DNA of 64,000 nt from the human T2T-CHM13v2.0 reference genome, Homo sapiens (GCF_009914755.1 NC_060932.1), one strand, 5' to 3'. Numbered from the stretch's first letter, positions 24,915 through 31,000 are shown. A program made the numbers and translations. Notes: a model not told the origin generated them from the letters alone.

Positions 24915-25103
24915 TTTTTTAAAGAATGTTGAATATTGGCCCCTACTCTCTTCTGTCTTGTAGAGTTTCTGCTGAGAGATCTGCTGTTAGTCTGATGGGC
25001 TTCCCTTTGTGGGTAACCCGACATTTCTCTCTGGCTACCGTTAACATTTTTTCCTTCATTTCAACTTTGGTCAATCTGACTATTACGTGTCTTGGGGTTG
25101 CTC
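24915..25103 (-). repeat. 189-bp inverted copy of L1 ORF1 segment 29722-29910 inserted in the THE1D 5' LTR
   Basis: Manual alignment: the reverse complement is identical to 29722-29910. The ORF track shows the same peptide ATPRHVIVRLTKVEMKEKMLTVAREKCRVTHKGKPIRLTADLSAETLQDRRE on opposite strands. Confidence 0.95.
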
Positions 25104-25745
25104 CTTCCTGCTGCCATGTGAAGAAGGATGAAGGATGTATTTGCTTCCCCTTCTGCCATGACTGCAAGTTTCCTGAGGCCACCCTAGCCCTGTGGAATTT
25201 TGAGTCAATTAAACCTCTTTCCTTTGTAAATTACCCAGTCTCAGGCAGTCCTTTATAGCAGTGTGAGAATGGACTAATACAGTAAATTGGTACCAGGAGT
25301 GGGACACTGCTGTAAAGATACCCAAAAATGTGAAAGTGACTTTGGAACTGGGTAACGGGCAGAGGTAGGAACAGTTTGGAGGAATCAGAAGAAGACAGGA
25401 AAATGTGGGAAAGCTTGGAACTTCCTAGAGACTATGAGGGCTCAGAAGACAGGAAGATGTGGGAAAATTTGGAACTTCCTAGAGACTTGTTGAATGGCTT
25501 TGACCAAAATGATGATAATGATATGGACAATGAAGTCCAGGCTGAGGTGGTCTCAGATGGAGATGGGAAACTTGTTGGGAACTGGAATAAAGGTAACTCT
25601 TGTTATGCAAAAAAGACTGGCAGCATTTTCTCCTGCCCCGGAGATGGTTTCCTGGGCCAGGGCCAGGGTCCTCCTGCTGTGTGCAGCCTTGGGATTTGGT
25701 GCCCTGCATCCCAACTGCTTCAGCCATGGCTAAAAGAAGCCAATG

Positions 25746-26038
25746 GGCCAGGAGTGGTGGCTCATGCCTGTAATCTCTGCACGTTGGGAGGCCGAGGCAG
25801 GTGGATCACAAGGTCAGGAAATCAAGACCATCCTGGCCAACATGGTAAAACACCATCTCTACTAAAAACACAAAAATTAGCTGGGTGTGGTGGAATGCAC
25901 CTGTAATCTCAGCTACTCAGAAGGCTGAGGCAGGAGAATCACTTGAACCCAGGGGGCGGAGATTGCAGTGAGTCAAGATCATACCACAGCACTCTAGCCT
26001 GGCAACACAGCCAGACTCTGTCTCAAAAAAACAAAAAA
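25746..26038 (+). mobile_element. Alu SINE (AluSc-like) nested in THE1D-int
   Basis: Full dimer; TSD core AAGCCAAT on both sides. Confidence 0.92.
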
Positions 26039-26163
26039 GCCAATATACAGCTCAGGCCATTGCTTAAGAGGGTGCAAGCCCCAAGCCTTGGCAGCTTCCA
26101 TGTGGTGTTGGGCCTGCGGGTGTGCAGAGGTCAAAAATTGAGGTTTGAGAGCCTCCACCTAGA

Positions 26164-26325: not shown

Positions 26326-27364
26326 AGGGTACTGCAGAAGGGAAATGTGGGGTTGGAGCCCCCACACAGAGTCCCCACTGGGGCACTCCCTAGTGGAGCT
26401 GTGAGAAGAGGGTCACCGTCCTCCAGGCCCCAAAATAGTAGATCCACAAACAGCTTGCACCGTGCACCTGGAAAAGCCACAGACAATGCCAGCCATGAAA
26501 GCAGCTGGGAGGGTGTTGTACCCTGCAAAGACACAAAGGCGGAGCTGCCTAATGTGGGAGCCCACTTCTTGCATCAGCGTGACCTGGATGTGAGACATGG
26601 AGTCAAAGGAGATCATTTTGGAACATTAAGGTTTAATGACTGCCCTATTGGATTTCAGACTTGCAAGAGGCCTGTAGCCCCTTTGTTTCAGCCAATTTCT
26701 CCCATTTGGAATGGGTGTATTTGCCCATTGCCTGTACCCCCATTGTATCTAGGAAGTAACTACCTTGCTTTTTATTTTGCACACTCATAGGTGGAAAGGA
26801 CTTGCCTTGTCTCAGATGAGACTTTGGACTTGGACTTTTGGGTTAATGCTGGAATTAGTTAAGACTTTGGGGAGACTGTTTAGGCCATGGTTGTGTTTTG
26901 AAATGTGAGGACATGAGATTTGGAAGACACCAGGTGCAGAATGGTATAATTTGGCTGTGTCCCCATCCAAATCTCATTTTGAAATGTAATTCCCATTATC
27001 CCCATGTGTCATGGGAGAAACCCAGTGGGAAGTAATTGAGTCACAGGGATGGTTACCCTCATGCTATTCTCATTATAGTGAGTGAGTTCTCACAAGATTT
27101 GATGGTTTTATAAGGGGCTTTCCCCCCTTTCACTCGGCACTCGTCCTTCCTGCCACCACATGAAGAAGGACATGTTTGCTTCCCCTTATGCCATGACTGT
27201 AAGTTTCCTGAGGCCTCCCCAGCCCTCCAGAACTGTGAGTTAAACCTCCTTCCTTTACAAATTATCCAATCTCAGGCAGTTCTATATAGCAGCATGAGAA
27301 CAGACTAATACAGATGGTAAACTATATATGTATATTTTACCTCAATTAAAAAATTAAAAAGAAG

Positions 27365-27670
27365 ACCTGAGCATGGTGGCTTATGCCTGTAATCCCAGCA
27401 CTTTGGGAGGCGAAGGCAGGTGGATCACCTGATGTCAGGGGTTCAAAGCCAGCCTAGCCAACATGGTGAAACCCTGTATCTACTAAAAAATACAAAAAAA
27501 AAAAAAAATAGCCTGGTGTGGTGGCACGTACTTGTAGTCCCAGCTACTCAAGAGGCTGAGGCAGGAGAATTGCTTGAACTCAGAAGGCAGAGGTTGCAAT
27601 GAGCCAAGATCATGCCACTGCACTCCAGCCTGGGTGACAGAGAAATAATTATCTATCTCAAAAGAAAAAG
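27365..27670 (+). mobile_element. Alu SINE (AluSx-like)
   Basis: Full dimer with expanded middle A-tract; flanking AAAAAGAAGA. Confidence 0.9.
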
Positions 27671-28067
27671 AAGAAGAAGAAGCTGCCATGCTCACTTAAG
27701 CACATTTTCCTGTATTTCCTGTTTACTAGGCAATTAGAAGCGAATATTGGTCTTTTTGGCAGTAGCTCATCTGTGTTAATGAGTATTTGTTTCCTTTTGT
27801 GTCATCCTCATCAGAACTATTCCACTTTGCTGGAGTAAACAGCAAATCAAATGATAAAACATAATAAAAACAATTTTTAAACCCACTATTTCCTTCACAA
27901 GTAGAAGTTTTCCTAGTTTCTATAATAATAAAAAACTAAAATGGTGGGAAAATAATTGATTACATCTGTTTTCTGCCTTAGAGTTTAAGAATAATTTCTC
28001 CATCTTTGTCATTTTCAACCCTCACTAAACATCTCCTATGGGTGCTTGGAGTTAAAAATCACAATAA

Positions 28068-31000
28068 GGATTCTGTTCCAAGATGACCCAATAGGAACAG
28101 CTCTGGTCTGCAGCTCCCAGCATGATCGATGCAGAAGACGGTGAATTCTGCATTTCCAAATGAGGTATCTGGTTCATCTCATTGGGACTGGTTGGACAGT
28201 GGGTGCAGCCCACAGAGAGTGAGCTGAAGCAAGGCATGGCATCGCCTCACATGGGAAGCACAAGGGGTCGGGGGATTTCCCTTTCCTAGCGAAGGGAAGC
28301 CATGACAGACTGTACCTGGAAAATGGGTAGACTCCCACCAAAAAACTGCACTTTTCCAATGGTTCTAGCAAACAGCACACCAGGCGATTATATCCTGCGC
28401 CTGGTTCGGCGGGTCCCATGCCCACGGAACCTTGCTCACTGCTAGCGCAGTAGTCTGAGATCAACTTGGGAGGCAGCAGCATGGCAGGGGAAGGGGCATC
28501 CGCCATTGCTGAGGCTTGAGTAGGTAAACAAAGTGGCTGAGGAAGCTCGAACTGGGCAGAGCCCACCACAGCTCTGCAAGGCCTGCTGCTCTGTAGACCC
28601 TACCTCTTGGGGGAGGCCATAGCTGAAAAAAAAGGCAGCAGAAACATCTGCAGACTTAAACATCCCTGTCTGACAGCTCTGAAGAGAGCAGTGGTTCTCC
28701 CTGCACAGTGTTTGAGTTCTGAGAATGGAAAGACTGCTCCCTCAAGTGGGTCCCTGACCCCCATGTAGCCTAACTGGGCTACACCTCCCAGTAGGGGCCG
28801 TCTAACACCTCATGCAGGCAGGTGCCCCTCTGGGACGAAGCTTCCAGAGGAAGGATCAGGCAGCAATATTTGCTGTTCTGCAGCCTCTGCTGGTGATAAC
28901 CAGGCAAACAGGGTCTGGAGTGGACCTCCAGTAAACTCCAACAGACCCGAAGCTGAGGGACCTGACTATTGAAAGGAAAACTAACAAACAGAAAGGAATA
29001 GCATCAACATCAATAAAAAGGACATCCACACCAAAACCCCATCTGTAGGTCACCAGCATCAAAGGCCAAAGATAGATAAAACCACAAAGATGGGGAGAAC
29101 CCAGAGCAGAAAAGCTGAAAATTCTAAAAATCGGAGTGCCTCTTCTCCTCAAAAGGATCACAGCTCCTCACCAACAATGGAACAAAGCTGGATGGAGAAT
29201 GACTTTGACGAGCTGACAGAAGTAGGCTTCAGAAGGTCGGTAATAACAAACTTCTCTAAGCTAAAGGAGGATGTTCAAACCCATCGCGAGGAGGCTAAAA
29301 GTCTTGAAAAAAGATTAGACGAATGGCTAACTAGAATAAACAGTGTACAGAAGACCTTAAATTACCTGATGGAGCTGAAAACCATGGCACGAGAATTATG
29401 TGATGCATGCACAAGCTTCAATCCATAGAGTGGAAGAAAGAGTATCAGTAATTGAAGATCAAATTAATGAAATAAAGCAAGAAGACAAGATTAGAGAAAA
29501 AAGAGTAAAAAGAAATGAACAAAGCCTCCAAGAAATATGGGACTATGTGAAAAGGCCAAATCTATGTTTGATTGGTGTACCTGAAAGTGCCAGAGAGAAT
29601 GCAACCAAGTTAGAAAACACTCTTCCGGATATGATCCAGGAGAACTTCCCCAACCTAGCAAAGCAGGCCAACATTCAAATTCAGGAAATACAGAGAACAC
29701 CACAAAAATACTCCTCGAGAAGAGCAACCCCAAGACACGTAATAGTCAGATTGACCAAAGTTGAAATGAAGGAAAAAATGTTAACGGTAGCCAGAGAGAA
29801 ATGTCGGGTTACCCACAAAGGGAAGCCCATCAGACTAACAGCAGATCTCTCAGCAGAAACTCTACAAGACAGAAGAGAGTAGGGGCCAATATTCAACATT
29901 CTTTAAAAAAAGAATTTTCAACCCAGAATTACATATACAGCCAAACTAAGCTTCATAAGTGAAGGAGAAATAAAATCCTTTACAGACAAGCAAATGCTGA
30001 GAGATTTTGTCACTACCAGGCCTGCCTTGCAAGAGCTCCTGAAGGAAGCACTAAACATGGGAAGGAACAACCAGTACCAGCCACTGCAAAAACATGCCAA
30101 ATTGTAAAGACCACTGATGCTAGGAAGAAACTGTATCAACTAACGGGCAAAATAAGCGGCTAACATCATAATGACAGGATCAAATTCACACATAATATTA
30201 ACCTTAAATGTAAATGGGCTAAATGCCCCAATTAAGAGACACAGACTGGCAAATTGGATAAAGAATCAAGACCCATCAGTGTGCTATATTCAGGAGACCA
30301 ATCTCAAGTGCAGAGACATACATAGGCTCAAAATAAAGGGACGGAGGAAGATCTACCAAGGAAATAGGAAGCAAAAAAAAAAAAGAAAAAAAAAAAAAAA
30401 AAAAAAGCTGGGGTTGCAATCCTAGTGTCTGATAAAACAGACTTTAAACCAACAAAGATCAAAAGAGACAAAGAAGGCCATTACATAATGGTAAAGGGAT
30501 CAATTCAACAAGAGTAGCTAACTATTCTAAATATATATGCACCCAATATGGGAGCATCCAGATTCATAAAGCAAGTCCTTAGAGACCTACAAAGAGACTT
30601 AGACTCCCAAACAATACTAATGGGAGACTTTAACACCCCACTGTCAATATTAGACAGATCAATGAGACAGAAGGTTAACAAGGATATCCAGGACTTGAAC
30701 TCAGCTCTGCACCAAGCAGACCTAATAGACATCTACAGAACTCTCCACCCCAAATCAACAGAATATACATTCTTCTCAGCACCACATCACACTTACTCCA
30801 AAATTGGCCACATAGTTGGAAGTAAAGCACTCCTCAGCAAATGTAAAAGAAGAGAAATCATGACAAACTGTCTCCCAGACCACAGTGCAATACAATTAGA
30901 ACTCAGGATTAACAAATTCACTCAAAACCACACAACTACATGGAAATTGAACAACCTGCTCTTGAATGACTACTGGGTAAATAATGAAATGAAGGCAGAA

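What the first reader, a model, noticed from the sequence alone, without database searches (positions are those of the whole stretch)
24915..29910. Perfect 189-bp inverted, locally templated copy of the neighbouring L1 ORF1 inside the THE1D 5' LTR
Seen: 24915-25103 is the exact reverse complement of 29722-29910. It shares that L1's private changes (CACGTAATAGTCAGATTGACC, TTAACGGTAGCC, premature TAG in GAGAGTAGGGG, CTTTAAAAAA), which differ from the second L1 at about 49.33-49.52 kb. There is no poly-A and no TSD. Relative to the 3' LTR (CACTC GGCACTCG TCCTTCC), about 7-8 bp are lost, with CTC microhomology at the right junction. Both host elements stay collinear around their copies. Inference: this is not retrotransposition but a recent template-switch or repair insertion (FoSTeS/MMBIR- or Pol-theta-like) copied from 4.6 kb away, or the scar of an inversion and re-inversion. 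Complete identity between two old elements implies very recent origin or ongoing gene conversion, and the pair could mediate inversion of the 4.6-kb spacer.
Basis: partly seen in the sequence, partly recalled or inferred. Interest (0 to 1): 0.85.

Follow-up and report, generated by a model that had tools for sequence, protein, structure and literature searches.

The report
Inverted L1 snippet pasted into LTR
A 189-base piece of an old L1 element was copied in reverse into a retroviral-type repeat 4.6 kb away, most likely as a patch during repair of broken or stalled DNA; this is a clean but ordinary example of a known kind of rearrangement in a gene-free region.

Summary
Window 24915-25103 is the exact reverse complement of 29722-29910 (189 of 189). 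It is the only perfect repeat of 60 nt or more in the window. In the whole held T2T assembly the 189-mer has two perfect matches. The next best of the 40 scored candidates are 93-95% identical.

The copy lies in the 5' LTR of a THE1-type element that has a 5-bp target duplication. It replaces 8 nt that the element's own 3' LTR keeps, and 2-3 nt of junction microhomology are present. There is no poly-A tail, no target duplication and no L1-endonuclease site. The source is an old, stop-ridden L1 ORF1 and is itself undisturbed.

Best reading: a DNA-templated patch primed by microhomology during break or fork repair. This is a dispersed inverted duplication with a small deletion at the insertion site, a described class of complex variant.

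Zero differences in 189 nt only bounds the age to roughly the human-chimpanzee split or younger. The microhomology is no more than chance often gives. Whether the site is polymorphic or the spacer inverts could not be tested. Interest is low.

The parts
24915..25103 (+). Inserted copy: 189 nt, antisense L1 ORF1 sequence as read on the + strand. The last two bases, TC at 25102-25103, could equally belong to the LTR (microhomology).
   Evidence: Exact reverse complement of 29722-29910. It interrupts the 5' LTR when that LTR is aligned to the 3' LTR.
29722..29910 (+). Source segment in ORF1 of the neighbouring L1. It covers the end of the RBD-like domain, a TAG stop at 29880-29882, and the start of the dsRBD-like domain.
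   Evidence: Pfam matches to Transposase_22 (E 1.5e-54) and Tnp_22_dsRBD (E 6.5e-28). The segment is collinear with the second L1, and its identity to that L1 is not an outlier: 92.1% against 86-94% in neighbouring bins.
28711..34230 (+). Donor L1 ('L1 A'): old, with many stops, at least this extent.
   Evidence: Aligns to the second L1 at 48322-53811 with 89.6% identity. The reading frames are fragmented. ORF1 and endonuclease domains are recognised.
24726..24914 (+). 5' LTR, left part, up to the left junction (ends CACTC).
   Evidence: 82% identical to 3' LTR 26949-27135; the alignment ends exactly at 24914 and 27135.
25104..25281 (+). 5' LTR, right part, from the right junction onward.
   Evidence: 80% identical to the 3' LTR from 27144 onward; the alignment restarts at 25102 and 27144.
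26942..27312 (+). 3' LTR of the same element, used as the stand-in for the empty site. 27136-27143 (GGCACTCG) has no counterpart in the 5' LTR.
   Evidence: The 5-bp target duplication GATGG at 24721-24725 and 27313-27317 shows that the two LTRs belong to one integration.
24483..24704 (.). Imperfect (TA)n, AT-rich quasi-palindromic tract about 210 nt upstream of the insertion point. It is a candidate cause of fork stalling or breakage (inferred).
   Evidence: Tandem Repeats Finder reports period 2 at 24503-24704. The repeat finder reports palindromic arms. The single-strand DNA fold is -33.4 kcal/mol, z = -4.74, and 0 of 200 shuffles fold as well.
25123..25136 (+). 7-nt tandem duplication GAAGGAT x2, 19 nt to the right of the junction and absent from the 3' LTR. 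It may be a companion error of the same repair synthesis or may be unrelated.
   Evidence: Read from the sequence and seen as gaps in the LTR-LTR alignment.

Best explanation
A break or collapsed replication fork arose in the 5' LTR at about 24914/25104. It was repaired by copying from a nearby non-homologous DNA template.

The most economical path is as follows. The right-hand 3' end (minus strand) lost or was trimmed of 7-8 nt. It then annealed by 2-3 nt (GA or GAG, read as TC or CTC on the + strand) to the minus strand of the L1, 4.6 kb away. It was extended by about 186 nt, copying L1 sense sequence up to the A-run at 29904-29910. It then came off the template and was joined to the left-hand end without homology.

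The product is an inverted dispersed duplication with an 8-nt deletion at the insertion site. It follows the logic of microhomology-primed template switching (MMBIR/FoSTeS) or synthesis-dependent end joining.

Shown here: the donor, the orientation, the exact extent, the deletion, the short microhomology, and the lack of retrotransposition hallmarks. Inferred: that the template was DNA, which end primed, and that the hairpin-prone (TA)n tract 210 nt upstream caused the break.

The event has no evident function; it lies in a gene desert. Its one lasting consequence is a perfect 189-nt inverted repeat around a 4.6-kb spacer.
For: - Donor. The two loci are the only perfect matches among the 40 scored of 2117 candidates in the whole assembly, and the next best are 93-95%. 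Private changes are shared.
- Copy, not cut. L1 A stays collinear with L1 B across the source, and identity shows no break there.
- Junctions. The LTR-LTR alignment stops at 24914/27135 and restarts at 25102/27144. That gives 8 nt lost and TC shared. It becomes CTC if the 5' LTR had the C seen in 27 of 29 related copies.
- No retrotransposition hallmarks. There is no target duplication. The T6 at the left end is part of the source's own run (T7 on that strand), not a tail. The nicked-strand site reads CACTC/GG, unlike the T-rich L1-endonuclease site.
- Old donor. It is about 6% from its closest relatives and carries stops. Sen et al. 2007 (PMC1920257, passages read) argue that this points to a genomic DNA template rather than L1 RNA. 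Their RNA-mediated cases all involved young L1s less than 2% diverged.
- Cis proximity. RNA-derived patches at breaks mapped to 18 of 24 chromosomes without preference (PMC5110952, passage). Inverted, nearby templates flanked by microhomology are the stated MMBIR signature (PMC8421209, passages).
- Possible trigger. An AT-rich hairpin-forming tract lies 210 nt from the breakpoint.
Against: - The microhomology is short. By my calculation, 2 nt or more at one of two junctions is expected by chance about 0.29 of the time, and 3 nt or more about 0.10. The left junction has none unless a 1-T slip in the homopolymer is assumed.
- The copied stretch ends in an A-run of the L1 sense strand. This is also what internal priming by a reverse transcriptase on an RNA might give.
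- Published searches for MMBIR-type insertions looked only for templates within 100 bp (PMC8421209). A 4.6-kb jump with a 189-nt copy is therefore outside the range they document.
- No empty allele or orthologue was seen, and no reads. A single haplotype cannot show the order of events.
- The role of the (TA)n tract rests on position alone.
Confidence: 0.7

Rival explanations
1. RNA-templated patch. A transcript running through the dead L1 was reverse-transcribed by an L1 reverse transcriptase acting in trans, primed inside the transcript's A7 run. The cDNA then bridged a pre-existing break in the LTR. This would be endonuclease-independent, of the 'class 2 templated sequence insertion' or non-classical L1 insertion type.
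For: The junction features fit both classes: 3' truncation, no target duplication, no poly-A tail, a site unlike the L1-endonuclease site, a micro-deletion and microhomology (criteria read in PMC1920257, and PMC5110952). In L1 sense, the copy ends at the A-run 29904-29910, which is A7 in the source and A6 in the copy. A 189-nt size lies within the 34-4410 bp range of the non-classical insertions.
Against: The LTR end, CACTC, offers no T-run to prime on an A-run. [quoted passage not shown] The donor is the nearest L1 in cis out of more than 2000 candidate copies, whereas RNA-derived patches showed no chromosomal preference. No evidence of transcription of this L1 was available.
Confidence: 0.1
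2. Two-step history. First came an inversion of the segment from the LTR breakpoint to 29910, with an inverted duplication of the 189 nt at one breakpoint (staggered breaks or a replication-based dup-inversion). Homologous recombination between the two 189-nt arms then flipped the spacer back.
For: The final sequence would be identical to what is seen. Both novel junctions (24914/24915 and 25103/25104) are predicted. Inversions with flanking duplications are a common class: 3,901 of 5,295 (73.7%) resolved complex variants in gnomAD-SV involve inverted segments (PMC7334194, passages).
Against: It needs two rare events where one suffices. At 189 nt the arms are at or below the homology length usually taken as needed for efficient recombination in mammals (recalled, not tested). 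The T2T-based inversion call set of 41 genomes has 23 chr8 mentions, and no coordinate begins 1174, 1175 or 1176, or 1163 or 1164 apart from one unrelated chr5 count (PMC10150506 supplement). That method is weak below about 10 kb, so this is a weak negative.
Confidence: 0.08
3. Capture of a free single-stranded DNA piece, such as a displaced flap or a piece of Okazaki-fragment size from lagging-strand synthesis over the L1, ligated into a nearby break by end joining.
For: 189 nt is about the size of a eukaryotic Okazaki fragment (recalled). One junction is blunt. Yeast work links Dna2, Rad27 and RPA defects to templated and inverted insertions at breaks (PMC11724301; title and start of abstract seen in the listing only).
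Against: There is no direct evidence. The very short inverted insertions in that yeast study (about 5-34 bp per the abstract start) are a different scale. A free fragment gives no reason for microhomology at the right junction.
Confidence: 0.06
4. An older, independently acquired L1 fragment in the LTR was later made identical to the neighbouring L1 by gene conversion, or conversion is keeping the pair identical.
For: Perfect identity between two sequences sitting in elements tens of millions of years old.
Against: An internal ORF1 fragment truncated at both ends is not a product of ordinary L1 insertion. Conversion would have had to erase every one of about 11 or more differences right up to both ends of the homology. 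Identity is explained without it if the event is younger than about 6-8 million years.
Confidence: 0.03
5. Assembly or in-silico artefact.
For: None positive. Reads could not be inspected.
Against: Both copies are in the held assembly at the expected coordinates. NCBI's own repeat mask, as listed with the finding, ends at 25073 in the copy and starts at 29752 in the source. These are the same L1 position (24915 + 158 = 25073; 29910 - 158 = 29752). The mask was therefore computed on a sequence that already held the insert.
Confidence: 0.03

Closest known systems
Interspersed (dispersed) inverted duplication with deletion at the insertion site. Written AD'CDE in Zhou et al., bioRxiv 10.1101/200170 (abstract and one passage read). 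A 'bridge' of one templated insertion in PCAWG terms (PMC7025897, passages read).
   Same: The layout is the same: left flank, a lost stretch, an inverted copy of a downstream segment, unchanged spacer, the segment itself, right flank. The string of copied sequence returns to the host chromosome and leaves a gap.
   Different: This one is small (189 nt copied, 8 nt lost, 4.6 kb jump) and sits in the reference assembly itself. The PCAWG events are somatic, and their sizes were not read here. Whether this one is polymorphic is unknown.
MMBIR-type templated insertions (MMB-TI; Osia et al. 2021, PMC8421209, passages read) and short-range template-switch mutations in great apes (Walker et al. 2021, PMC7954356, start of abstract seen only).
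   Same: An insertion in inverted orientation relative to a nearby complementary template, with microhomology at a junction, present as a germline or evolutionary variant.
   Different: The published search covers templates within 100 bp and inserts up to read length. Here the template is 4.6 kb away and the copy is 189 nt. Only one junction shows microhomology.
Non-classical (endonuclease-independent) L1 insertions (Sen et al. 2007, PMC1920257, passages read).
   Same: An L1 fragment truncated at both ends, with no target duplication and no poly-A tail, at a site unlike the endonuclease site, and with a target deletion (18 of their 21 loci had deletions of 5 bp or more).
   Different: Their fragments are young L1s less than 2% diverged, taken to come from L1 RNA. 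This one is an exact copy of an old, diverged neighbour. The authors themselves name SDSA from neighbouring DNA as the alternative and saw a same-chromosome match of 98% at one locus.
Class 2 templated sequence insertion polymorphisms (Onozawa and Aplan 2016, PMC5110952, abstract and passages read).
   Same: A patch at a break with a micro-deletion and microhomology, without target duplication or poly-A tail. The donor is not excised.
   Different: Those patches are described as coming from distant regions through RNA. Here the donor is 4.6 kb away in cis, and an RNA origin is neither needed nor testable.

Membership tests
Classical L1 retrotransposition (target-primed reverse transcription) | Poly-A tail at the 3' end of the inserted L1 sense strand | tested here: not met
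   In L1 sense, the copy ends in A6, which is part of the source's own internal A7 run in ORF1. The L1 3' end is absent.
Classical L1 retrotransposition (target-primed reverse transcription) | Target-site duplication flanking the insert | tested here: not met
   Instead of a duplication, 8 nt of the LTR are missing relative to the 3' LTR.
Classical L1 retrotransposition (target-primed reverse transcription) | Insertion at a T-rich endonuclease site (TTTT/A, as quoted in PMC5110952 and PMC1920257) | tested here: not met
   The strand that would prime reads CACTC/GG at the break.
Templated insertion by template switching (MMBIR/FoSTeS-type; signature as stated in PMC8421209) | The insert is an inverted copy of a nearby template that stays intact | tested here: met
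   Exact reverse complement, 4618 nt away. The source is collinear with a second L1. The donor is unique in the genome.
Templated insertion by template switching (MMBIR/FoSTeS-type; signature as stated in PMC8421209) | Microhomology at both junctions | tested here: inconclusive
   Right junction: 2 nt (TC), or 3 nt (CTC) if the ancestral base was the C seen in 27 of 29 related LTRs. Left junction: 0 nt, or 2 nt only with a 1-T slip. This is not beyond chance.
Templated insertion by template switching (MMBIR/FoSTeS-type; signature as stated in PMC8421209) | The template was DNA and was copied during replication or break repair | not testable with these tools
   Only the end product is seen. Argued from cis proximity and the age of the donor.
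Non-classical (endonuclease-independent) L1 insertion, four criteria of PMC1920257 | 3' truncation, no target duplication, no poly-A tail, and a site that diverges from the endonuclease consensus | tested here: met
   All four can be read from the sequence and the LTR-LTR alignment.
Non-classical (endonuclease-independent) L1 insertion, four criteria of PMC1920257 | The fragment derives from RNA of a young, recently active L1 (less than 2% diverged in all 21 described loci) | tested here: not met
   The fragment is identical to an old neighbour. That neighbour differs at 11-12 of 189 positions from its 20 closest fetched relatives and carries stops.
Inversion flanked by inverted duplication (dup-inversion classes) | The segment between the inverted copies is inverted relative to its flanks | tested here: not met
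   The LTR is collinear across the insert, and the L1 is collinear across the source. Only a past inversion that was later reversed would fit.

The most novel reading that the evidence does not exclude
A fork stalled at the hairpin-forming (TA)n tract and became uncoupled. The leading strand jumped to the exposed lagging-strand template 4.6 kb ahead and copied one stretch the length of an Okazaki gap (189 nt). The resulting perfect inverted repeat is specific to the human lineage, still polymorphic, and now flips the 4.6-kb spacer recurrently. That would make it a natural, datable example of how a single template switch seeds a small inversion toggle.
Probability: 0.06. Interest if true: 0.45.

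Novelty: new member of a known kind. Interest (0 to 1): 0.2.

Why it matters
The locus matters little on its own. It lies in a gene desert with no annotated gene or functional element, and the structure belongs to a described class of complex variant.

Its value is as a very clean, base-resolved example. The donor is identified uniquely. The element's own 3' LTR stands in for the empty site. Both junctions are exact.

The scale is intermediate: a 189-nt copy across a 4.6-kb jump. This falls between the template switches within 100 bp that current searches target and the kilobase-to-megabase rearrangements studied in disease.

The argument of Sen et al. 2007 also applies here in reverse. An old, diverged L1 fragment without retrotransposition hallmarks points to a DNA template rather than an RNA one. 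If pangenome data showed the site to be polymorphic, or the spacer to invert, it would become a useful small model of how inverted repeats arise.

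Tried and rejected
- A paralogue carrying the empty or filled site was sought with the whole 565-nt 5' LTR. Only the locus itself spans the junctions. The other 39 of 40 scored matches (of 9505 candidates) cover only the L1 part. This gave no independent empty site.
- Other MaLR-type LTRs in the window (9.7, 11.6 and 18.7 kb) are only about 68% identical and align poorly at the junction. 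They were not used for the ancestral state; 29 closer genomic copies were used instead.
- Population evidence was sought in two places. The T2T inversion call set (PMC10150506, xlsx and docx supplements; the PDF is not readable here) has no entry near chr8:117.5 Mb. The one held supplement of PMC12350169, cut when stored, gave only chance number matches in assembly statistics. Neither can show absence of a 4.6-kb inversion or of a 181-nt indel.
- The GRCh38 coordinates I searched (about chr8:116.38-116.39 Mb) come from a recalled offset and may be off.
- Two L1s that share the 27-mer with 1 mismatch were checked as possible alternative donors. They were rejected at 90.5% and 89.9% identity over the 189 nt.
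- No other primate genome and no reads are held, so the dating rests on a Poisson bound alone.
- The subfamily names (THE1D, and the L1 subfamily) could not be checked because no repeat library is available.

Full report
**Observation.** Window 24915-25103 is the exact reverse complement of 29722-29910: 189 of 189 positions, with 4618 nt between the arms. The match stops sharply at both ends. Left of the copy the LTR reads ...TTCACTC, where the L1 on the same reading strand has ...AAATTCT. Right of it the LTR reads CTTCCTG..., where the L1 has TTCTCGA.... It is the only perfect repeat of 60 nt or more in the 64-kb window. The next cleanest is an 81-nt tandem duplication at 98%.

**The insert is in the real assembly.** The held genome G000 places the window at C8:117490001-117554000 and holds both copies at the expected coordinates. 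The NCBI repeat mask quoted with the finding ends at 25073 in the copy and begins at 29752 in the source. These are the same L1 position (24915 + 158 and 29910 - 158). The mask was therefore computed on a sequence that already held the insert. Reads could not be inspected.

**The donor is the neighbouring L1.**
- Across the whole assembly the 189-mer has two perfect matches. The other 38 of the 40 scored matches, out of 2117 first-look candidates, are 93-95% identical. The tool scores only the best candidates, so these counts are lower bounds.
- Twenty of these copies were fetched and differ at 11 or 12 of 189 positions.
- The second L1 of the window (49334-49522) differs at 15 positions. At 11 of these, at most 5 of the 20 other copies share the pair's base. 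At the other 4 the second L1 is the odd one out.
- A 27-mer carrying three of the private changes occurs without mismatch only at the two loci. Two other L1s match it with one mismatch but are only 90.5% and 89.9% identical over the 189 nt.
The A that makes the TAG at 29880-29882 is shared by 5 of 20 other copies.

**What the two hosts are.** The source lies in ORF1 of an L1 on the + strand. The frame 29379-29882 matches the Pfam L1 trimerisation and RBD-like domains (E 4.9e-20 and 1.5e-54). The frame 29907-30107 matches the dsRBD-like domain (E 6.5e-28). The L1 is old: its frames are broken into many pieces, and it is 89.6% identical to the second L1 over 5.5 kb.

The recipient is the 5' LTR (24726-25281) of an LTR element whose 3' LTR is 26942-27312. 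The 5-bp direct repeat GATGG at 24721-24725 and 27313-27317 shows a single integration. The two LTRs were therefore once identical, and the 3' LTR can stand in for the empty site. They are now 80-82% identical, so the element is tens of millions of years old. The name THE1D could not be checked.

**Junction anatomy.** The LTR-LTR alignment ends at 24914 and 27135 and restarts at 25102 and 27144. Eight bases of the 3' LTR (GGCACTCG, 27136-27143) have no counterpart. The last two bases of the copy (TC) could belong to either partner.

The left junction has no shared base. The source has a run of seven T on that strand and the copy has six. Only if one T was lost would TC be shared there too.

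By my own calculation for random sequence, 2 nt or more of microhomology at one or both of two junctions arises about 0.29 of the time, and 3 nt or more about 0.10. The microhomology is compatible with a primed copy but is not evidence on its own.

There is no target duplication, no poly-A tail and no T-rich endonuclease site.

**The source is undisturbed.** L1 A aligns collinearly with L1 B across 29722-29910. Identity in that 189-nt bin is 92.1%, against 86.2% and 94.2% in the bins on either side. The segment was copied, not moved. Nothing suggests that it is foreign to its L1.

**Mechanism.** The simplest account is one repair event:
1. A break or collapsed fork forms in the LTR.
2. A few bases are lost.
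3. One 3' end anneals by 2-3 nt to the L1, 4.6 kb away, on the opposite strand.
4. About 186 nt are synthesised.
5. The end is released within the homopolymer run.
6. It is joined to the other end without homology.

[quoted passage not shown] That search covers only templates within 100 bp.

The same layout is catalogued in two other places. [quoted passage not shown] In cancer genomes a string of templated insertion that returns to the host chromosome and leaves a gap is called a 'bridge' (PMC7025897, passages).

A hairpin-prone imperfect (TA)n tract at 24483-24704, about 210 nt upstream, is a plausible cause of the break. Its single-strand DNA fold is -33.4 kcal/mol, with z = -4.74 and 0 of 200 shuffles folding as well. 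That link rests on position only. A 7-nt tandem duplication (GAAGGAT twice, 25123-25136) 19 nt from the junction and absent from the 3' LTR may be a by-product of the same error-prone synthesis, or may be unrelated.

**DNA or RNA template.** The junction features also satisfy the four criteria of non-classical, endonuclease-independent L1 insertions: 3' truncation, no target duplication, no poly-A tail, and a non-endonuclease site. They also fit class 2 templated sequence insertions (PMC1920257; PMC5110952). In addition, the copy ends, in L1 sense, in an A-run.

Three points weigh against RNA.
- The LTR end has no T-run to prime on an A-run.
[quoted passage not shown] The authors argue that a DNA-templated route would mostly pick old, mutated copies, which is what is seen here.
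- RNA-derived patches showed no chromosomal preference. This donor is the nearest L1 in cis among more than 2000 candidate copies.

I put the RNA route at about 0.1.

**Inversion and re-inversion.** A dup-inversion followed by recombination between the arms would give exactly this sequence, so one haplotype cannot exclude it. It needs two rare events, and 189 nt is short for homologous recombination (recalled). In the T2T-based inversion call set of 41 genomes there are 23 chr8 mentions. No coordinate begins 1174, 1175 or 1176, or 1163 or 1164 apart from one unrelated chr5 count (PMC10150506 supplements). The method is weak for a 4.6-kb segment, so this is only a weak negative. A second supplement search gave nothing usable (PMC12350169, file cut when stored).

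**Age.** Two copies diverge from each other as two orthologues do. Divergence values here are recalled from the primate genome papers.

| Comparison | Divergence | Differences expected in 189 nt | P(0) |
|---|---|---|---|
| Human-chimpanzee | 1.23% | 2.3 | 0.10 |
| Human-gorilla | 1.6% | 3.0 | 0.05 |
| Human-orang-utan | 3.1% | 5.9 | 0.003 |
| Human-macaque | 6.5% | 12.3 | 5e-6 |

(All.) The three CpG sites in the segment tighten this slightly. The event is therefore young relative to its hosts. It probably falls on the human lineage or in the African-ape ancestor. Perfect identity does not require it to be very recent, polymorphic, or maintained by conversion.

**Comparison and verdict.** The thing is a new, well-resolved member of a known kind: a dispersed inverted duplication, or templated insertion, with a small insertion-site deletion. 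It lies in a gene desert with no annotated element. Its only foreseeable effect is that it created a perfect 189-nt inverted repeat that might occasionally recombine. Interest is low (0.2). What would raise it is population or ape data showing an empty allele or an inverted spacer, and these tools cannot supply that.

Noticed in passing
window 26164-26325: An 81-nt tandem duplication (two copies, 97-98% identical) lies inside the internal part of the LTR element. It is a second young local duplication in the same element.
   Followed up: no
window 25390-25433 and 25444-25487: A 44-nt direct repeat at 93% identity with 54-nt spacing, in the internal region just right of the 5' LTR.
   Followed up: no
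window 25123-25136: A 7-nt tandem duplication, GAAGGAT twice, 19 nt right of the insert junction and absent from the 3' LTR. It may be a companion of the same repair event.
   Followed up: partly
window 24483-24704: An imperfect (TA)n, AT-rich quasi-palindromic tract abuts the 5' LTR. It folds far better than shuffles (-33.4 kcal/mol, z = -4.74).
   Followed up: partly
window 28711-34230 and 48322-53811: Two roughly 5.5-kb L1 copies lie in the same orientation 19.6 kb apart and are 89.6% identical. They are ordinary, but they are a possible substrate for unequal recombination.
   Followed up: no
window 30369-30406: A run of about 34 A lies inside L1 A between the ORF1 and ORF2 regions. The alignment to L1 B has 26 gap columns in the bin 30289-30477.
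   Followed up: no
window 27142-27143: The 3' LTR reads CG where 27 of 29 related LTR copies read TC, two adjacent differences. The ancestral state of this element at the junction is therefore uncertain.
   Followed up: partly
G000:C4:119116337-119116363 and G000:C23:124234388-124234414: Two other L1 copies share the otherwise rare ACTATTACGTG-type changes of the 27-mer (1 mismatch) but are only about 90% identical overall. This is either parallel change or a minor L1 lineage.
   Followed up: partly
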